Below are positions 1 through 6,563 of a stretch of DNA of 6,563 bases, one piece after another. A program made the translations under genes and the position numbers. Source of the stretch: a virus. Taxonomy: Duplodnaviria; Heunggongvirae; Uroviricota; Caudoviricetes. Below the pieces are notes generated by a model that was not told the origin of the DNA, ran no database searches, and saw only the letters and a program-made list of their open reading frames with translations. The number at the start of each line of letters is the position of its first letter. Position 1 is the first letter of the stretch. Where the stretch lies: IMG/VR virus record IMGVR_UViG_2534681697_000019. One strand, written 5' to 3'.

Positions 1-228
1 GGGAAGTTTGTTGCTTATGATTATGCAGCATGGCTAAACCCCGGATTTAAATATGCAGCCTATAAAGTCCTGGATGACTACTTCACCGGAGAACTTCAGC
101 ATCGCAACAGATTAAGTGCGCAGCTCAATATGAAGTGTCATGAGTTTGATCAGAAAAAAGATATGGCGAGCTTCTGTGGACAAGGGCTGGCGGCATGGCG
201 CTATACGAAGCCAGTGTTGGTCTCTTAG
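1..228 (+). CDS. 3' portion of a phage gene whose 5' end lies outside the window; possibly KilA-N/antirepressor-like
   Basis: Frame 1 is open from the window edge to TAG at 226-228 (GKFVAYDYAAWLNPGFKYAAYKVLDDYF...). The AAWLNPGF-type motif resembles the conserved A-WLSPEF region I recall from KilA-N domains. Family assignment is from memory only. Confidence 0.35.
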   Translation, partial: GKFVAYDYAAWLNPGFKYAAYKVLDDYFTGELQHRNRLSAQLNMKCHEFDQKKDMASFCGQGLAAWRYTKPVLVS

Positions 229-278
229 ATTCACACCCTGGCTAACCAGCTGCAGATAACGATCCCCGGGCTTCCGGG

Positions 279-536
279 ATGAGTGATCGTGTCATTGAAT
301 GCGCCTCCAGAGCGGGGCGCGACTTCTCAGAGTTCATGAAAGGCGAGAAGGGCATGATGGAAGCATTGGCCTCGGTGGATGAGTTTGGCGAGCAGCTGCG
401 CCTCAACGGCTGTGTCAATCATCACTTTGTTAGCTACATGATGCGGAACTCGATCATGCAGGCATTCATGGACATGGCAAAAGCCGAGAGGAAAGAAGAG
501 CGCCGGCGTAAGCGAGCGGAAGCAAAAGCGAAGTAG
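279..536 (+). CDS. hypothetical small phage protein (85 aa) with a strongly basic Lys/Arg-rich C-terminal tail
   Basis: ATG-initiated ORF with coding-like codon usage, lying between two same-strand phage genes. No family recognised. The preceding RBS is weak. Confidence 0.4.
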   Translation: MSDRVIECASRAGRDFSEFMKGEKGMMEALASVDEFGEQLRLNGCVNHHFVSYMMRNSIMQAFMDMAKAERKEERRRKRAEAKAK

Positions 537-637
537 CCATTACAAAGCCCATCTACGGGTGGGCTTGATAATGGCTTATACCCTACACGGGATAACTTAA
601 CTGATATCCCTTTTAACGGATAAACGGAGCACAAATA

Positions 638-1111
638 ATGGCAAAGCTCACCGACAAACAAGAGCTGTTTGCCCGTGAGTACCTGAAAGATCTGAACGGC
701 ACACAGGCAGCTATCAGGGCGGGCTACAGCGAGAAGACCGCCAATGAGCAGGCATCTCGATTATTAGCAAATGTTAATGTTCAAAAATTCGTTGCTGAAC
801 TTAAATCCGCCCGCGTTGAGCAGACGGGTATAGATGCCGCCTATGTTCTTCGTAGATTGGTTGAAATCGACCAGATGGATGTGCTCGACATTCTCCTGCA
901 AAACGGTGAGCTAAAGCCCATTAAAGACTGGCCTAAGGTATGGCGCACAACGCTATCAGGAATGGATGTCGTGGAGATGGTATCCGCAGATAGCGCCGCA
1001 CTTCTGAAGAAAATCAAATGGCCTGATAAGGTTAAAAACCTTGAGTTGCTTGGGCGTCATGTTTCTGTTCAGGCGTTTAAAGACAACGTCAAAAATGAAG
1101 TGACTGGCTGA
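638..1111 (+). CDS. phage terminase small subunit (Terminase_2/P27-like), native 3' end replaced by the IS
   Basis: GGAG about 7 nt upstream of ATG 638. The N-terminus MAKLTDKQELFAREYLKDLNGTQAAIRAGYSEKTA is the characteristic HTH start of Terminase_2-family small subunits. The stop TGA at 1109-1111 is the first three bases of the IS left inverted repeat, so the true C-terminus is missing. Confidence 0.75.
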   Translation: MAKLTDKQELFAREYLKDLNGTQAAIRAGYSEKTANEQASRLLANVNVQKFVAELKSARVEQTGIDAAYVLRRLVEIDQMDVLDILLQNGELKPIKDWPKVWRTTLSGMDVVEMVSADSAALLKKIKWPDKVKNLELLGRHVSVQAFKDNVKNEVTG

Positions 1112-1172
1112 GGTAGCCTGAGTTTAACGGACACTCCTTCCTGAAATAGAATGGCATCAGAAGGAGCTAATA

Positions 1173-1475
1173 ATGAGCAGAAAAACCCAACGTTACTCTA
1201 AAGAGTTCAAAGCCGAAGCTGTCAGAACGGTTCTTGAAAATCAACTTTCGATCAGTGAAGGCGCTTCCCGATTATCCCTTCCTGAAGGCACTTTAGGACA
1301 ATGGGTTACCGCCGCCAGAAAAGGGCTCGGTACTCCTGGTTCCCGCACGGTGGCTGAACTGGAATCTGAAATTCTGCAACTGCGTAAGGCGTTAAATGAA
1401 GCTCGCCTTGAGCGAGATATATTAAAAAAAGCAACAGCGTATTTTGCACAGGAGTCGCTGAAAAATACGCGTTAA
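1173..1475 (+). CDS. IS3-family transposase OrfA (HTH DNA-binding / leucine-zipper part), IS600-like
   Basis: 100-aa ORF with a GGAG RBS (AGAAGGAGCTAATA-ATG). Sequence is typical IS3-family OrfA with an HTH and a heptad Leu repeat (LESEILQLRKALNEARLERDIL) ending near the slippery site. Confidence 0.9.
   Translation: MSRKTQRYSKEFKAEAVRTVLENQLSISEGASRLSLPEGTLGQWVTAARKGLGTPGSRTVAELESEILQLRKALNEARLERDILKKATAYFAQESLKNTR
1424..1470 (+). other. programmed -1 ribosomal frameshift signal of the IS: A7 slippery run plus downstream stem-loop
   Basis: A_AAA_AAA at 1424-1430, with AAA AAA in the orfA zero frame, followed by G. Six nt downstream, a 9-bp stem GCGTATTTT (1437-1445) pairs with AAAATACGC (1462-1470) around a 16-nt loop. 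Confidence 0.6.
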
Positions 1476-1510
1476 TCGAACAATGGCGACAACAATTTCC
1501 CATTGAAGCG

Positions 1511-2329
1511 ATGTGTCAGGTATTTGGTGTATCCAGGAGCGGTTATTACAACTGGGTACAGCATGAACCCTCAGACAGAAAACAAAGTGATGAGCGGCTA
1601 AAACTGGAGATTAAGGTGGCACATATCCGCACTCGCGAAACATATGGAACCCGGCGGCTCCAGACGGAGCTGGCAGAGAATGGCATCATCGTTGGTCGTG
1701 ACCGACTGGCACGTCTTCGTAAGGAGCTAAGGCTACGCTGTAAGCAGAAACGCAAGTTCAGAGCGACTACGAACCCGAACCACAATCTGCCAGTTGCGCC
1801 AAATCTGCTGAACCAGACGTTCGCTCCTACAGCACCAAATCAGGTCTGGGTGGCGGACCTGACGTATGTTGCCACACAGGAGGGATGGTTGTACCTCGCT
1901 GGCATCAAAGATGTTTATACGTGCGAAATTGTCGGCTACGCCATGGGAGAGCGCATGACAAAAGAGCTGACAGGTAAAGCCCTGTTTATGGCGCTCAGGA
2001 GCCAGCGCCCACCTGCCGGGCTAATCCACCACTCTGATCGAGGTTCACAGTACTGCGCATACGATTACCGGGTCATACAGGAGCAGTTTGGTCTGAAAAC
2101 ATCAATGTCGCGTAAAGGTAACTGTTACGACAACGCTCCGATGGAAAGCTTCTGGGGAACGCTGAAAAATGAGAGCCTGAGCCACTATCGTTTTAATAAC
2201 CGGGATGAAGCCATCTCAGTAATACGGGAATACATTGAGATTTTCTACAATCGTCAGCGTCGTCACTCTCGTCTGGGGAATATCTCCCCGGCAGCCTTCA
2301 GGGAAAAATATCATCAGATGGCTGCTTAA
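1511..2329 (+). CDS. IS3-family transposase OrfB (DDE catalytic domain), expressed as an OrfAB fusion by -1 frameshifting
   Basis: 272-aa ORF in the -1 frame relative to orfA. That frame is open from the slippery site at 1427 through 1511 (…KSNSVFCTGVAEKYALIEQWRQQFPIEAMCQVFGVSRSGYY). DDE-type motifs are visible (WVADLTY, HHSDRGSQY, NAPMESFW). Confidence 0.9.
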   Translation: MCQVFGVSRSGYYNWVQHEPSDRKQSDERLKLEIKVAHIRTRETYGTRRLQTELAENGIIVGRDRLARLRKELRLRCKQKRKFRATTNPNHNLPVAPNLLNQTFAPTAPNQVWVADLTYVATQEGWLYLAGIKDVYTCEIVGYAMGERMTKELTGKALFMALRSQRPPAGLIHHSDRGSQYCAYDYRVIQEQFGLKTSMSRKGNCYDNAPMESFWGTLKNESLSHYRFNNRDEAISVIREYIEIFYNRQRRHSRLGNISPAAFREKYHQMAA

Positions 2330-2353
2330 AAAAAGAACAAATGGTAGTGTCCG

Positions 2354-2920
2354 CTATTGCCAGTACACCTCAGCTTCATCAATAATCAGAAGGGGGTTAA
2401 CACGGCCACTGGTTTCTTTACCACCACCCAGTTTTCTGCGAATGGCGCGGGTTACATTCCCCTTATTTCTTCCCGGATTATTAATTTCCAGCGCATATGC
2501 TATTTCAAGGAGGCATTCCGTTACGCTCGAATGTGCCGGAGCAAGAGTCACCATCCAGGCATTAGCTGTCCTGCGACAATATTCCCGGGCAGCAAAGGTT
2601 TTTCCGACACCCGGTACGCCAACAACGACACTGATAATCCCGAGTGAGCGCACTGTTTTAAACAGCTCATGCAAATCACAAAATGTCTGGGTCTTCACAA
2701 CACCAGGGGTACCTGACAAGTTCTGTCCCTTCTGCCAGACCTGATACCATTTCTGTAATTTGTCATGCATACCTTCGACATTACCGTTGTACTCTCCTTT
2801 ACGCAGAGCCGAGAGTGTTGCCGGAGACATTCCGGCTTCATCAGCAATATCTTCCTGAGACTTGTCGCCCTCGTTAATCAAAGCGTTAATAGTGTTGAAA
2901 ACATCATCAATATCAGTCAT
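2354..2920 (-). pseudogene. Mu B-like AAA+ transposition ATPase, truncated by the IS insertion (about 184 native residues plus 4 IS-derived codons)
   Basis: GAGG RBS 7 nt before ATG 2920. Walker A GVPGVGKT is present, and the product aligns with Mu B as I recall it (YNGNVEGMHDKLQKW against YNGDNERVSQMLQRW; ...LLIIDEA against ...LVIIDEAD). The reading frame enters the IS right end within the Walker B motif and stops at 2354-2356. No C-terminal continuation exists on the other side of the IS. Confidence 0.8.
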
Positions 2921-2964
2921 AGTATTTCCTCGGTTATTTCAAATCAGCTTTGTTTCCTTTATTT

Positions 2965-2993
2965 AACAGTCCGTTCCCGCGGACTGTTTTTTT
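2965..2993. terminator. hairpin in the A-B intergenic spacer; intrinsic-terminator-like on the + (antisense) strand
   Basis: 9-bp stem AACAGTCCG (2965-2973) pairs with CGGACTGTT (2980-2988) around a 6-nt loop, followed on the + strand by a T7 run (2987-2993). On the coding (-) strand the hairpin is followed only by the A/U-rich stretch UUAAAUAAAGG. Confidence 0.35.
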
Positions 2994-2995
2994 AT

Positions 2996-5080
2996 TCAGG
3001 CCAGCGGATCATCTTCTTCCTGCATGGCAAAAAGTTTTTGCATCCCCAGCCGGAAATCGCGTTCAAATTCTTCGTCATGCTCTTCTTCATATTCCGGTTG
3101 CTGAACTGCCACCACATTACCAACCGGGCGATAAACATTACTCAGCCAGGGTTCAGCCTGTTTGTGTTCCAGAATCTGAATACCTTCATCTTCAGCATCA
3201 CGAATTTTTTCCTCAGCGCGTTTGCGCATTCCTTTAATACGCTGCTGTTGTTTGTGATATTCAGCACTGACAGCAAAGGCTGCGCGTTTATTGCCGTTCC
3301 ATATCGCCTCACAGATAAAGCTGCCGTCCTTGCGACGTACCGTAATTCGCTCGGCGTCATGAATGTCATAACTGATAAGCACTTTGCGACCGTGTTCGTC
3401 ACGCAACTCCGGCGCGTAGTAAATATTGTTCAGCCACTGAATTTCGCAGCGTCTTACCGGTCGTTCCACCATTGGGCGGAACATGTCGCGCAGCTCAAGA
3501 TCACTCAGCCACTCAATTTCGGTGTCTTCTTCTGCCAGGCGTTTTTTTCTGAACTCTGCCGGGCTGTAATGCCGTCCGTTCGGTTTCATCGGCAGCTCAG
3601 AATGCGGGCGGTTGTTGTACCATTCCACGCCTTCACGAATAGCCTCAATAAGCTCCGCCCACGATGGCAGCTCGCGCATTGCCGCTTTCTGGCGGTCGTT
3701 CAGAGGCTTGTCCTGTTGCAGGGAGTTAAACGCTGAACGCAGATCACGGTTAAGTACACGCAACGATTCCCGGTCAGCACCCTTGCCAAAATAGGTGCGA
3801 TACCTCCTGGCTATACGCATCGGCAGTGTCCGGTTCAGGCGTTCAATAATGCCGCGTCCCTGTGGATTACCGGCAATACCGGTAGGGTGTTTAATCCCCA
3901 GGCGTGGCAGAATACCCACGACCTCTTTGTCCAGCATGTCAGCCGTTTCACCGGAACCGTTATCCGAGTAATACAGGAACGGTTTTCCGTGGTTGCGAAT
4001 GCCGTGCTGTATCGCACCGGCAACGGCGAACACGTTTTCGGCAAGGTCAAGACTCCAGCCAACAACAAACCGTGTTCCACCATCGATCACAAACGTGACT
4101 TCCGGTGAGAATGGACGCCCGTGGATCGGATGCGCACATTTCAGCTTCATACCGTGACCGTCACCAATCCAGACATAATTCACCGGCATAGCTGTCCAGT
4201 CGCGGCGGGTGAATCCTTCAAGCTGACGGTATTCACTGCCGGTAACGCGCCCTTTTTGTTTCACCACTTCCGGCAGTTTTTTCATGGCATACCGGACAAC
4301 ATCATAGGAAGGCATCACCTCCAGCATGTACGGTTCGTCCGCATGGCGACGCTGCCATTCTGCGACAAAATCCTCGTAGGCTTCTGACATGGGTCTGCCG
4401 TTCACCTAGCGATACTGCGCCAGAAATTCAGGCAGCCAGCTGATTTCTTCCGGTTTTATTTCGTCGCGTTTTCCCGGTGCCAGTAACAGCAGCCGTTCGG
4501 CGGCGTTCTGCGACTGGTTGTATTTCAGAACCCACTGGTAAAGTGGATCGCGGCTGATAGTACGATTAGCGCCACGTTTTGCATTGGCGTTAACTGCGGC
4601 CTGTTGCAGGCGCTCCGGCAGCTCACCTTTACGGGCTTTTTCAACAAGAAAGTTAATGGCTTTCAGTCGCCCGAGGTTACCGGCGCTTTCCAGCTTCAGC
4701 ACTTCCACCACCAGCGCAGCCCTTGCTTCAGATACCCGACGCTGGTTTTCGGTCAGCGCATTCAGGCGTTCTTCCATCAGTTGTGGCGAACCGCGATATG
4801 CTTCGATTGCCTGGACAGCATCAGGATTGCGTGTTTTTCTGGTAACAGCTTTCACTTCAGAAACATTGTTCTCTGTAGCCACCAACTGTGCCACATAGCG
4901 TTCACGCAGTGCCTTTTGAATAACAATAGGTAAAGAGTTTATTTCGCACTCAACAACACGTCCCTTAACCCCAGCTTTAAGACGTGTCTGCCATGACTCT
5001 TTTTTAGCTTTCTTATGCAAACCCGCAAGTGAACTAGGTAATCCACAAAATGAAGCTAATTCAGTCATTGGAACCCACAT
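2996..5080 (-). pseudogene. Mu A-like DDE transposase, interrupted by a single in-frame TAG at 4406-4408
   Basis: GGAGG RBS 4 nt before ATG 5080. N-terminus MWVPMTELASFCGLPSSLAGLHKKAKKESWQTRLKAGVKGR matches the Mu A enhancer-binding winged-helix domain as I recall it. DDE-like motifs follow the break (VWIGDGHG, YYSDNGSG, GRGIIERLN), and the C-terminal region resembles Mu A (HDAERITVRRKDGSFICEA). One frame is continuous except for the TAG (…LAQYR-TAG-VNGRPMSEAYEDF…), giving a 224-codon N-terminal segment (4409-5080) and a 469-codon C-terminal segment (2996-4405). Confidence 0.85.
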
Positions 5081-5315
5081 TTTTCCTCCGTGAGCGACGT
5101 TCATATCTGGTTGGCCAAATAACCTCTGGTTGAACTCCAATAGCTTGCGCAATAATCCCTTCTCCCTTTAAATAGGGGACTCGCAAAGTATTACCTAACG
5201 TTCTTGGCCTTAAATTATTTTCTCTCGATAAGCGAGACAAATTAGTACCACGCTTCTCAAGCTCAGCCTTGATATCAGCGGAATCCCAATCCTCACCTAA
5301 AATCACGATTAACAC
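5061..5315 (-). CDS. Ner-like DNA-binding regulator of a Mu-like phage
   Basis: Product aligns with Mu Ner as I recall it (EDWDSADIKAELEKRGTNLSRLSR...LKGEGIIAQAIGVQPEVIWPTRYE against RDWHRADVIAGLKKRKLSLSALSR...PKGEQIIANALETKPEVIWPSRYQ). There is no in-frame ATG; the start is GTG at 5315 or GTG at 5306. The gene's 3' end overlaps the transposase start by about 20 nt. Confidence 0.75.
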   Translation of the reverse strand: MLIVILGEDWDSADIKAELEKRGTNLSRLSRENNLRPRTLGNTLRVPYLKGEGIIAQAIGVQPEVIWPTRYERRSRRKNVGSND

Positions 5316-5446
5316 CCCACGCGCTTTCTATGGCAAACTCTATGACTCATGCGTGTAACTCACGAGAGTTACTCAACTGTGTGTGGTTGGAATATTAGAT
5401 ATTAACTAAGTAAATATCAACTGGTTAATTTCATTGGGAGGTTGAT
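5316..5446. promoter_or_regulatory. divergent early/repressor promoter-operator region of the Mu-like element
   Basis: On the - strand: -35 TTGATA (+ coordinates 5415-5420), 17-nt spacer, -10 TAATAT (5392-5397), directed toward ner-A-B. On the + strand: -35 TTGGAA (5387-5392), 18-nt spacer, -10 TAAATA (5411-5416), directed toward the repressor gene. Downstream of the leftward promoter lie three 13-bp-spaced TNACTCA repeats (5343, 5356, 5369) and an 18-bp palindrome GTAACTC-ACGA-GAGTTAC (5355-5372). Promoter and operator roles are inferred from position and pattern only. Confidence 0.45.
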
Positions 5447-5953
5447 ATGATCCAAGATCAAGAATGGGTGCCTGCTAGTGAACTCCTCGGTGTTGGCGGT
5501 TTACCCACATCCCTTGCAGGACTCCATAAGCGAGCAAGAAATGAGGGGTGGGAAAAACGTTCAGTTACAACACCCGGAGTTAGAGGAAGGGCCTTTGCGT
5601 ACCGATTGCAAGACTTGCCTGAACACGTCGCTGCAATTGTTAGCGGTCAGTTGCAAACAGCAACCAAACCATCAAACAAGGCCTCAAAAGCTAATGAGTT
5701 AATGAAAATAATGGATTCTCTAAGCGAACAAGAAAAAGAGATCGTGATCCATACGCTCAAACGAAAAGGTGTTGAAAAGTTGCTCGAATTTTGCAGCCAA
5801 GAAAACCAAGAGTTGATTAGTTTAACGGGTATTCGAAGATTAGCTGCTTTAAGCCTAAATAACCTGTCAGAACAAAAGGTTAGAGAGATTTTGGCGGGAA
5901 ATGAAGCTGAGGCCGATCTCATCCAACTAACCAACAAGGCAGTTAGCATATAA
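5447..5953 (+). CDS. Mu c-like phage repressor
   Basis: GGGAGG RBS 5 nt upstream of ATG 5447. The N-terminal domain EWVPASELLGVGGLPTSLAGLHKRARNEGWEKR...GVRGR is visibly paralogous to the transposase N-terminus encoded at 5080 (WVPMTELASFCGLPSSLAGLHKKAKKESWQTR...GVKGR), the arrangement known for Mu repressor and Mu A. It is transcribed divergently from ner-A-B, toward the prophage end. Confidence 0.8.
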   Translation: MIQDQEWVPASELLGVGGLPTSLAGLHKRARNEGWEKRSVTTPGVRGRAFAYRLQDLPEHVAAIVSGQLQTATKPSNKASKANELMKIMDSLSEQEKEIVIHTLKRKGVEKLLEFCSQENQELISLTGIRRLAALSLNNLSEQKVREILAGNEAEADLIQLTNKAVSI

Positions 5954-6047
5954 TCAGCTAGCTGTGCTTAACTTACTTGGTCCATTTCTACAACTTCTGA
6001 TAAGCTAGTTTTAAAAGCCTTTAAAAGGTCAAAATAAACAAGACGCT

Positions 6048-6180
6048 TTATCTTGAATGTTTTATTGTTCTGAACAAACTAAACGGCCCTTGCCCATTTT
6101 ATCTTGAATACAACTAGTAGCTAAGTTATTGAATCCAACCAAATCCCGTCTTTTTTAATCTCTTCCCGGTTATCTTGAAT
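6048..6180. repeat. three direct copies of TTATCTTGAAT: candidate transposase-binding sites at the Mu-like left end
   Basis: Exact 11-mers at 6048-6058, 6099-6109 and 6170-6180, with conserved flanks (cTTTATCTTGAATg, tTTTATCTTGAATa, gGTTATCTTGAATa), plus a degenerate copy GTTATTGAAT at 6125-6134. They lie 14-146 bp inside the inferred terminus, comparable to the L1-L3 layout of Mu attL. Confidence 0.55.
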
Positions 6181-6197
6181 AAATTACCTAGTCATAG

Positions 6198-6461
6198 GAT
6201 CTACATTTTCTCGCAAGTCGAATGGATACCTCAAAGCTGGATTTGATTCTGGTCGAAGGGTTTAAGCATGAAGAGATCGCAAAGATTGTGCTGTTTCGCG
6301 ATGGAGCCGGACATCGACCGGAAGAATTAGTGATAGACAGACATGTTATTGCTGTAGCCAGTGATGTGTCACTTAATCTTGATGTCGCGTTACTGGATAT
6401 TAATGATGTTGGGGGGCTGGCTGATTTTGTGGTGGAGTGGATGCAAAATCAGGACGGATAA
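6198..6461 (+). pseudogene. mobB: 3' fragment of molybdopterin-guanine dinucleotide biosynthesis protein B gene, 5' part removed by the prophage insertion
   Basis: Translation DLHFLASRMDTSKLDLILVEGFKHEEIAKIVLFRDGAGHRPEELVIDRHVIAVASDV...DFVVEWMQNQDG matches the C-terminal half of E. coli MobB as I recall it. The P-loop N-terminal half is absent, and homology stops at about 6198 where the Mu-like end begins. Stop codon TAA at 6459-6461. Confidence 0.8.
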
Positions 6462-6525
6462 GCAAGAGTAGGCTGGATCAGACGCAGCCAGCGTCGCATC
6501 CGACCTTTTTCTGCACCAGCGCAAA

Positions 6526-6551
6526 AAGGCCCAGTCTTCCGACTGGGCCTT
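6526..6551 (-). terminator. GC-rich hairpin intrinsic terminator, probably bidirectional
   Basis: 11-bp stem AAGGCCCAGTC (6526-6536) pairs with GACTGGGCCTT (6541-6551) around a 4-nt loop TTCC. On the - strand the stem is followed by TTTGCGC, giving a T5 run with the stem end. On the + strand it lies about 65 nt after the mobB stop and is followed by the less U-rich CTGCTTAATTT. Confidence 0.6.
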
Positions 6552-6563
6552 CTGCTTAATTTG

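What the first reader, a model, noticed from the sequence alone, without database searches (positions are those of the whole stretch)
1109..2372. The IS600-like element is a rearrangement joint between a lambdoid late-region fragment and a Mu-like early region
The left flank is a terminase small-subunit gene (+ strand) whose stop codon comes from the IS. The right flank is a Mu B-like gene (- strand) cut within its Walker B motif. The missing C-terminal part of B is not on the other side of the IS, and the 3-bp flanks (GGC and GCT) do not form a clean target-site duplication. The simplest explanation is recombination between two IS copies, or an IS-mediated adjacent deletion or inversion, fusing two unrelated prophage remnants.
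Basis: partly seen in the sequence, partly recalled or inferred. Interest (0 to 1): 0.45.

Follow-up and report, generated by a model that had tools for sequence, protein, structure and literature searches.

The report
IS600 copy with mismatched flanks
An ordinary IS600 insertion sequence in a draft Shigella boydii contig joins half of a lambdoid-phage terminase gene to half of a Mu-like phage B gene, but in a closed genome of the same lineage these two junctions lie on separate IS600 copies 3.4 Mb apart, so the join is probably an assembly artefact.

Summary
Bases 1109-2372 are a complete 1264-bp IS600. Its first three bases (TGA) stop a terminase small-subunit gene at codon 157 of 184. Its right end cuts a Mu B-like ATPase gene after IIDEA (residue 183 of 316). 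The flanks are GGC and GCT, whereas four other IS600 copies carry clean 3-bp duplications.

The window is the start of a 6971-bp draft contig of Shigella boydii ATCC 9905 (AERN01000031.1), which ends in the rrn repeat. In the closed chromosome CP026875.1, near-identical across the loci compared, both junctions exist base for base but on two different IS600 copies. These copies lie 3.4 Mb apart in direct orientation. One is a simple insertion in terS (GGC/GGC). The other sits at an internal B-to-gp46 deletion of the Mu-like prophage.

The reciprocal joint is absent. In the same draft, the terS 3' end lies behind a third IS600 flank (ykgM'). A real origin therefore needs two large inversions. 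These would probably unbalance the replichores, and IS-internal markers do not fit any crossover placement.

Best reading: a contig chimera through the collapsed IS600 repeat (about 0.6). Real IS600-by-IS600 recombination is about 0.33. Either way this is known biology of low interest.

The parts
1..228 (+). 3' part of a lambdoid-prophage KilA-N/ORF11CD3 gene. It is cut short by a TAG at 226-228 that arises from four clustered substitutions at 223, 226, 232 and 235.
   Evidence: Pfam ORF11CD3 2e-08. The gene runs to window position 282 in CP026875.1 and in E. coli VL7S7. The variant is absent from 5,426 E. coli genomes.
279..536 (+). 85-aa conserved phage protein of unknown function.
   Evidence: PHROG 875, 3.2e-54. 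The same gene order is seen in L001 and L003.
638..1108 (+). Terminase small subunit gene, native codons 1-157 of 184.
   Evidence: Pfam Terminase_2 2.5e-38. The intact 184-aa gene and the empty site GAAGTGACTGGCGCTGACGG are in L020.
1106..1108 (.). GGC, the left copy of the 3-bp target duplication of the terS insertion. Its partner is missing from the window.
   Evidence: CP026875.1 has GGC|IS600|GGC at the same site.
1109..2372 (+). Complete IS600 (IS3 family), 1264 bp. Its first three bases, TGA, provide the stop codon of the truncated terS.
   Evidence: 100% identity to annotated IS600 copies. Boundaries confirmed by copies with clean duplications.
1109..1135 (.). Left terminal inverted repeat of IS600.
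   Evidence: pair I1.
2346..2372 (.). Right terminal inverted repeat of IS600.
   Evidence: pair I1.
1173..1475 (+). IS600 orfA (100 aa, HTH_Tnp_1).
1424..1470 (+). Programmed -1 frameshift region: slippery A AAA AAA (1424-1430) followed by a 12-bp-stem hairpin (1437-1448 / 1459-1470).
   Evidence: Read from the sequence. Hairpin is pair I6. RefSeq annotates 'programmed frameshift' for identical copies.
1511..2329 (+). IS600 orfB (DDE/rve catalytic domain), in the -1 frame relative to orfA.
   Evidence: Pfam rve 3.2e-26, HTH_21, rve_2, rve_3.
2373..2920 (-). 5' part of the Mu B-like AAA+ transposition ATPase gene. Native residues 1-183 of 316 are present, and five IS-encoded residues and a stop follow (ORF 2354-2920).
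   Evidence: The intact gene is in L002.
2996..5092 (-). Mu A-like transposase gene, inactivated by an in-frame amber codon at 4406-4408 (CAG in the intact homologue).
   Evidence: Pfam Mu-transpos_C and HTH_Tnp_Mu_1. PHROG 310. Comparison with L002.
5061..5315 (-). ner-like repressor gene.
   Evidence: Pfam HTH_35 9e-27. PHROG 769.
5447..5953 (+). Mu c-like repressor gene.
   Evidence: Pfam HTH_Tnp_Mu_1. PHROG 7148, 8.2e-64.
5954..6196 (.). Left end of the Mu-like prophage, with three TATCTTGAA repeats at 6049, 6100 and 6171 that are probable transposase-binding sites.
   Evidence: Similarity to other Mu-like prophages inserted elsewhere stops at 6196-6200. Repeats found (by count alone not above chance). 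The same motif occurs at the right end in L015.
6197..6461 (+). 3' fragment of mobB, the chromosomal gene split by the Mu-like prophage.
   Evidence: Pfam MobB. The other mobB fragment lies beyond mom in CP026875.1.

Best explanation
The element is a standard, apparently intact IS600. The S. boydii lineage carries many copies of it. At least two matter here.

- Copy 1 is a simple insertion into terS of a lambdoid prophage, with target duplication GGC.
- Copy 2 sits inside a Mu-like prophage inserted in mobB. It marks an internal deletion from B codon 184 to the end of gp46.

The window's contig joins the left junction of copy 1 to the right junction of copy 2. The most likely reason is computational. 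Reads from the 1.26-kb multi-copy IS600 were collapsed or chained, and the draft assembler walked in from one copy's flank and out into another copy's flank.

Shown: the identity of the element, both junctions, their separate locations and orientation in a closed relative, and a second discordant IS600-crossing contig in the same draft.

Inferred: that ATCC 9905 has the same chromosome arrangement as CP026875.1, and hence that the join is an artefact.
For: (1) The window equals bases 1-6563 of the 6971-bp draft contig AERN01000031.1, from S. boydii ATCC 9905. The contig runs through 5S rRNA and stops 195 nt into 23S rRNA. It starts inside a prophage segment shared with other prophages.

(2) In the closed chromosome CP026875.1, terS5'-GGC|IS600|GGC-terS3'-terL lies at about 4.2595-4.2608 Mb. 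B'-IS600 lies at about 0.8376-0.8417 Mb. Both IS copies are on the minus strand.

(3) Direct repeats 3.42/1.74 Mb apart cannot recombine into this joint without breaking the chromosome into two circles.

(4) Four other assemblies of the lineage (one further NCBI draft and three Logan assemblies of sequencing runs) all break at the IS ends (L005, L008-L010, L013, L014, L019). They give no independent support for the join.

(5) A second contig of the same draft crosses IS600 with flanks ykgM' and terS3'. This again disagrees with CP026875.1, where ykgM'-IS600 is followed by an IS911 remnant.

(6) Copy-specific markers in CP026875.1 are G221T in copy 3, and an extra G near nt 547 plus an IS66-family insert in copy 2. 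All are absent from both draft IS copies, which equal the consensus apart from one homopolymer indel. No placement of crossovers reproduces this pattern.

(7) The draft consensus is locally unreliable. Four substitutions within 13 bp at 223-235 occur in no other genome searched.
Against: Real IS600 flank swapping does occur in this clade. The same ykgM'-IS600 left junction has three different right flanks in three closed genomes and the draft.

The two discordant draft contigs share copy 1. They are mutually compatible with two successive inversions: copy 1 with copy 3, then the resulting hybrid with copy 2.

The two strains are not identical. There are 7 substitutions in 13 kb of the lambdoid prophage.

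The draft breaks contigs at much smaller repeats, such as contig 71 of 2720 nt. Crossing IS600 might therefore rest on mate-pair evidence that I cannot see.

The IS-internal markers are single bases and could be private to CP026875.1 or long-read errors.
Confidence: 0.6

Rival explanations
1. The joint is real. In ATCC 9905, homologous recombination between IS600 copies rearranged the chromosome. First came an inversion between copy 1 (terS) and the oppositely oriented copy 3 (ykgM'). Then came an inversion between the resulting hybrid and copy 2 (Mu-like B'). The products are terS5'-IS600-B' (the window), ykgM'-IS600-terS3' (contig 72) and a predicted gp46'-IS600-Y joint.
For: Both junctions are base-for-base the pre-existing ones, as recombination inside the IS predicts. 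Copy 3 lies on the opposite strand to copies 1 and 2, so the two-step path is topologically possible. Contig 72 shows exactly the first predicted product. IS600 right flanks differ among closed genomes of the clade. Recombination between IS copies is a documented source of deletions in Shigella pINV (PMC5629016, abstract).
Against: It needs two large inversions relative to a relative that is near-identical in every locus compared. The second would shift about 1 Mb between replichores, giving roughly 31:69, if oriC lies near mobB as in K-12. That synteny is shown only for trkH-hemG-rrnA-mobB...polA. The IS-internal markers do not fit any crossover placement. The third joint could not be found. 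Support comes only from one draft assembly.
Confidence: 0.33
2. IS600-mediated adjacent deletion or inversion by intramolecular transposition. One IS end keeps its original flank and the other end attacks a new target, fusing the two prophages.
For: A missing target duplication is what such events leave (for the contrast with simple insertions).
Against: Intramolecular transposition creates one new junction at a new target. Here both junctions already exist, to the base, at two separate IS600 copies in CP026875.1 and in four other assemblies of the lineage. The distances involved are 1.7-3.4 Mb.
Confidence: 0.03
3. Simple IS600 insertion into a phage in which terS and B are natural neighbours, or with shifted IS boundaries that hide a duplication.
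For: None found.
Against: Intact terS is followed by terL and portal. Intact B is followed by small early genes and gam. The genes converge on opposite strands. The IS boundaries are fixed by four copies with perfect 3-bp duplications.
Confidence: 0.01

Closest known systems
IS600 (IS3 family), the abundant Shigella/E. coli insertion sequence
   Same: 1264 bp and 100% identical to annotated IS600 copies. It has imperfect terminal inverted repeats, orfA/orfB with an A AAA AAA slippery site and downstream hairpin, and a DDE (rve) catalytic domain. Simple insertions carry 3-bp target duplications.
   Different: Nothing in the element itself. Only this copy's two flanks do not belong together.
Hybrid IS joints left by homologous recombination between IS copies in Shigella (inversions, deletions)
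   Same: There is no target duplication, and each flank matches one side of a different insertion. The same clade shows one IS600 left junction with several right flanks. IS-IS recombination causing deletions in Shigella pINV is described in PMC5629016.
   Different: The parental copies are direct repeats on opposite sides of the chromosome in the closed relative. A single event cannot give this joint, and no reciprocal joint exists in the assembly.
Repeat-collapse chimeric contigs in short-read draft assemblies (general knowledge, not a tool result)
   Same: The contig is short and bounded by repeats (prophage repeat and rrn). It crosses a high-copy 1.26-kb repeat longer than the reads of that era. 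It disagrees with a long-read closed genome, and other assemblies break at the same spot.
   Different: The chimera is not proven, because no read-level data could be examined.
Bacteriophage Mu early region (c, ner, A, B) and Mu-like prophages of E. coli/Shigella
   Same: The gene order c / ner-A-B is the same. The B homologue is 41% identical to Mu B. A carries Mu-type DNA-binding and C-terminal domains. Repeats lie next to the prophage end.
   Different: It is a defective remnant. A has an amber codon and B is truncated. In the closed relative everything from B to gp46 is deleted.

Membership tests
IS600 / IS3 family insertion sequence | Near-identity over the full length to known IS600 | tested here: met
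   100% over 1264-1265 nt to copies annotated as IS600 family in RefSeq. ISfinder itself was not available.
IS600 / IS3 family insertion sequence | Terminal imperfect inverted repeats | tested here: met
   1109-1135 and 2346-2372, with TGAGGT termini.
IS600 / IS3 family insertion sequence | Two overlapping reading frames (HTH orfA, DDE/rve orfB) joined by a programmed -1 frameshift | tested here: met
   Pfam HTH_Tnp_1 and rve. orfB is in the -1 frame. A7 slippery run at 1424-1430 plus a hairpin. Frameshifting itself was not assayed.
Simple (primary) IS600 insertion | Identical 3-bp direct duplication of the target on both sides | tested here: not met
   GGC versus GCT in the window. Controls GGC/GGC, TGC/TGC, CTG/CTG and TAC/TAC are clean.
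Simple (primary) IS600 insertion | The two flanks are the two halves of one interrupted sequence | tested here: not met
   The left flank is terS and the right flank is Mu-like B, on opposite strands. The empty sites are in L020 and L002.
Biological IS-by-IS recombination joint (inversion) | Each junction identical to a junction of a separate parental copy | tested here: met
   Both are found in CP026875.1 at copies 3.4 Mb apart.
Biological IS-by-IS recombination joint (inversion) | Parental copies in inverted orientation and a reciprocal joint in the same genome | tested here: not met
   Copies 1 and 2 are direct repeats. The terS 3' end in the same draft is joined to ykgM', not to the B/gp46 side.
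Biological IS-by-IS recombination joint (inversion) | Physical linkage of the two flanks in genomic DNA (spanning reads or PCR) | not testable with these tools
   No read data are accessible. Only one draft contig shows the linkage.
Mu B-type AAA+ transposition ATPase (right-flank gene) | Homology to Mu B with Walker A and Walker B motifs, encoded directly downstream of a Mu A-type transposase | tested here: met
   PHROG 296 at 2.5e-88 and 41% identity to Mu B for the intact homologue. GVPGVGKT and LLIIDE are present. The A gene lies upstream. The window copy lacks residues 184-316.
Terminase small subunit, Terminase_2 (left-flank gene) | Pfam PF03592 match, located directly upstream of a terminase large subunit | tested here: met
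   Pfam 2.5e-38. terL follows in L003 and L020. The window copy lacks the last 27 codons.

The most novel reading that the evidence does not exclude
ATCC 9905 really carries the joint. Two successive IS600-by-IS600 inversions would then have scrambled about 1.7 Mb of its chromosome relative to a near-identical sister strain. This would link a lambdoid late-gene remnant to a Mu-like early-gene remnant and leave a strongly unbalanced replichore pair. It would be a recent, datable example of how far IS-driven rearrangement can go in Shigella.
Probability: 0.33. Interest if true: 0.2.

Novelty: already known. Interest (0 to 1): 0.1.

Why it matters
It matters little for biology. IS600, defective lambdoid and Mu-like prophages, and IS-mediated rearrangement are all well known in Shigella.

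The practical lesson concerns interpretation. An IS with mismatched flanks in a short draft contig should not be read as a rearrangement until it is checked against a closed genome or against reads.

If the joint were real, it would add one more strain-specific inversion pair to an already long list, with an unusual replichore imbalance.

Tried and rejected
(1) I looked for the whole window in 5,426 complete E. coli genomes. No record covers 80% or more of it, and matches are piecewise only.

(2) One apparent hit to window 1-2372 in strain VL7S7 was two unrelated pieces joined by the tool, an IS600 copy and a KilA-N region 4 kb away.

I got round this through the listing of cluster members ids.

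(4) I tried to test the third joint predicted by the double-inversion model through the 103-aa ORF next to copy 3. That exact protein is on record only in CP026875.1, so the test was uninformative.

(5) I tried to find the ATCC 9905 contig carrying baseplate J. Its exact protein occurs in 304 index blocks, and only long contigs were returned.

(6) I searched the literature for the assembly method of AERN01 and for the organism name of CP026875.1. Only the strain name for GCA_000193915.2 was recovered. CP026875.1 is taken to be S. boydii because its exact proteins carry S. boydii names.

(7) BLAST extensions of 10-19 nt beyond the IS ends in some E. coli hits suggested a shared target. On inspection the flanks were unrelated apart from chance matches.

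(8) I considered and rejected adjacent deletion by intramolecular transposition, natural adjacency of terS and B, and shifted IS boundaries (see the rival explanations).

(9) A genome contigs or metagenome scan was not run. The joint cannot be written as a pattern of 600 nt or less, and the collection holds one genome per species.
Full report
**What is in the window**

The window reads, left to right, as follows.
- The 3' end of a KilA-N gene (1-228) and an 85-aa phage gene (279-536).
- A Terminase_2 small-subunit gene (638-1108).
- A complete IS (1109-2372).
- On the minus strand, a Mu-type early region: the B 5' part (2373-2920), A (2996-5092), ner (5061-5315) and, diverging on the plus strand, a c-like repressor (5447-5953).
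- The prophage left end (to 6196) and the 3' fragment of mobB (6197-6461).

The IS is 1264 bp. Its imperfect terminal repeats are 1109-1135 and 2346-2372. It has an HTH orfA and an rve orfB in the -1 frame. An A AAA AAA slippery run lies at 1424-1430, followed by a 12-bp-stem hairpin (pair I6). The element is 100% identical to copies annotated as IS600 in closed E. coli genomes.

**Checking the observation**

- terS stops at the IS-borne TGA after 157 of 184 codons. The empty site in E. coli FDAARGOS_943 reads GAAGTGACTGGCGCTGACGG.
- B is native up to ...LLIIDEA (residue 183 of 316), immediately after Walker B. Five IS-encoded residues follow.
- The intact homologue matches PHROG 296 'DNA transposition protein' at 2.5e-88 and is 41% identical to Mu B.
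- The flanks are GGC and GCT. Four other IS600 copies with the same boundaries carry perfect 3-bp duplications (GGC, TGC, CTG, TAC). The boundaries therefore cannot be shifted, and the mismatch is meaningful.
- terS and B are not natural neighbours. In FDAARGOS_943 both are intact and 478 kb apart. terS is followed by terL and portal, and B by small early genes and gam.

**Where the window comes from**

Exact-protein look-ups with the two truncated proteins show that the window is bases 1-6563 of a 6971-bp draft contig, AERN01000031.1. This is assembly GCA_000193915.2, Shigella boydii ATCC 9905. The contig continues through 5S rRNA and stops 195 nt into 23S rRNA. This is rrnA, next to mobB as in K-12. 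Its left end lies inside a prophage segment (about 1-624) shared with other lambdoid prophages. The contig is therefore two short unique stretches joined by a multi-copy IS and bounded by repeats.

**The closed relative**

Only one closed chromosome carries both truncated proteins: CP026875.1. Its exact proteins carry S. boydii names. In it the two junctions are present base for base, but on two different IS600 copies.

Copy 1 lies at about 4,259,516-4,260,779 on the minus strand. It is a simple insertion: terS5'-GGC|IS600|GGC-GCTGACGG-terS3'-terL-portal.

Copy 2 lies at about 837,625-841,651, also on the minus strand. It lies in the Mu-like prophage in mobB.
- On one side is B', with the junction identical to the window.
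- On the other side are the last 96 nt before baseplate J, followed by gp48, tail-fibre genes, mom and the other mobB fragment.
- Its flanks are TGA and GCT, so it marks an internal B-to-gp46 deletion of that prophage.
- It is also interrupted at IS nt 104-111 by a 2754-bp IS66-family element with an 8-bp duplication, and it has one extra G near nt 547.

The window differs from CP026875.1 by no substitutions across the Mu region (5.3 kb). On the terS side it differs only by the four clustered changes at 223-235.

Both junctions pre-exist, so the joint can only arise by exchange inside the IS. That exchange is either homologous recombination or in-silico collapse. Intramolecular transposition (adjacent deletion) is excluded.

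Copies 1 and 2 are direct repeats separated by 3.42 Mb one way and 1.74 Mb the other. A single crossover would cut the chromosome into two circles.

The predicted reciprocal joint is absent. In the same draft, contig AERN01000072.1 carries terS3'-terL-portal behind an IS600 whose left flank is ykgM' (rpmE2 5' end). In CP026875.1 that ykgM' junction belongs to a third copy at about 4.770 Mb on the plus strand. There it is followed by an IS911 remnant and a 103-aa recombinase fragment.

**Can the draft be biologically right?**

Yes, but only by two inversions.
1. Copy 1 recombines with the oppositely oriented copy 3. This gives ykgM'-IS-terS3', which is observed in contig 72.
2. The resulting hybrid recombines with copy 2. 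This gives terS5'-IS-B', which is the window.

A third joint is then predicted: gp46'-IS600::IS66-recombinase fragment. I could not test it.

Three points favour this reading.
- The ykgM'-IS600 junction has different right flanks in three closed genomes, so such swaps do happen in the clade.
- The two strains are not identical, with 7 substitutions and 5 single-base indels in 13 kb of the lambdoid prophage.
- The draft breaks contigs at smaller repeats, so its IS crossings might rest on mate-pair data.

Three points count against it.
- The final arrangement would move about 1 Mb from one replichore to the other, giving roughly 31:69. This assumes oriC lies about 0.1 Mb from mobB as in K-12 (my knowledge). 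Local synteny trkH-hemG-rrnA-mobB...polA is shown.
- The copy-specific markers (G221T in copy 3, extra G in copy 2) appear in neither draft IS. I enumerated crossover positions for both possible orders of the two events, and each predicts at least one marker in one of the two contigs. This is weak evidence, because the markers are single bases.
- Four other assemblies of the lineage break at the IS ends and give no independent support.

The draft also shows local consensus trouble. Four substitutions within 13 bp create a stop in KilA-N. They are found in none of 5,426 E. coli genomes nor in CP026875.1.

**Verdict**

The IS is ordinary IS600. The mismatch of its flanks is real in the sequence as given.

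The most likely origin of the join is a chimeric contig through the collapsed IS600 repeat (about 0.6). Real double inversion in ATCC 9905 remains possible (about 0.33). Adjacent deletion and natural adjacency are rejected.

What the closed genome does show is (a) a simple IS600 insertion in terS and (b) an IS600-marked internal deletion of the Mu-like prophage. Both are routine for Shigella. Novelty: already known. Interest: low.

Noticed in passing
window 4406-4408 (minus strand): The Mu A-like transposase gene carries an in-frame amber codon (TAG; CAG in the intact homologue of E. coli FDAARGOS_943) with an adjacent synonymous change. The same stop is in CP026875.1. The prophage is therefore transposition-dead, independently of the B truncation.
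   Followed up: yes
window 223-235: Four substitutions lie within 13 bp (223 T, 226 T, 232 C, 235 A). They create a premature TAG in the KilA-N gene. They are absent from CP026875.1, from VL7S7 and from all 5,426 complete E. coli genomes searched. This looks like a local consensus error of the draft rather than biology.
   Followed up: partly
window 5954-6461; L015 380-420 and 14640-14700: The Mu-like prophage is inserted in mobB. The left end is at 6196, with three TATCTTGAA repeats inside it, and the motif recurs at the right end. The flanking duplication appears to be ATCC, or 5 bp with one mismatch (GATCC/AATCC). Both ends start TA rather than Mu's TG. I did not resolve the exact end.
   Followed up: partly
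L006 11711-14464 (CP026875.1, about 0.839 Mb): A 2754-bp IS66-family element is inserted inside IS600 copy 2 at IS nt 104-111, with an 8-bp duplication (GCCGAAGC). The window's IS lacks this nested insertion.
   Followed up: yes
L012 1-3300 (AERN01000072.1): A second contig of the same draft crosses an IS600. Its flanks are ykgM' (AAA) and the terS 3' end (GGC). Its IS copy has one extra A at IS nt 52. The contig starts 358 nt inside an IS911 copy.
   Followed up: yes
L017 11323-12586; L021 and L023 6095 onwards: The ykgM'::IS600 left junction is shared by three closed genomes (CP026875.1, CP026824.1, CP027027.1). It has two different right flanks, an IS911 remnant or an integrase fragment. 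In CP027027.1 a further IS is inserted inside the IS600. The insertion is old and was rearranged afterwards.
   Followed up: partly
L004 6566-6971 (just beyond the window end): 5S rRNA (6566-6681, minus strand) and the last 195 nt of 23S rRNA follow mobB. The contig ends inside the rrn repeat. Window 6525-6556 holds a GC-rich hairpin (GGCCCAGTC...GACTGGGCC) between mobB and the 5S gene, probably a terminator.
   Followed up: partly
L002 (E. coli FDAARGOS_943, 360.9-380.8 kb): An intact, 99.5% identical copy of the Mu-like prophage early region (window 2370-4916) sits at a different chromosomal site near metG. The repressor/ner region (window about 4917-6097) is not alignable there. This indicates a different immunity module on an otherwise near-identical phage.
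   Followed up: no
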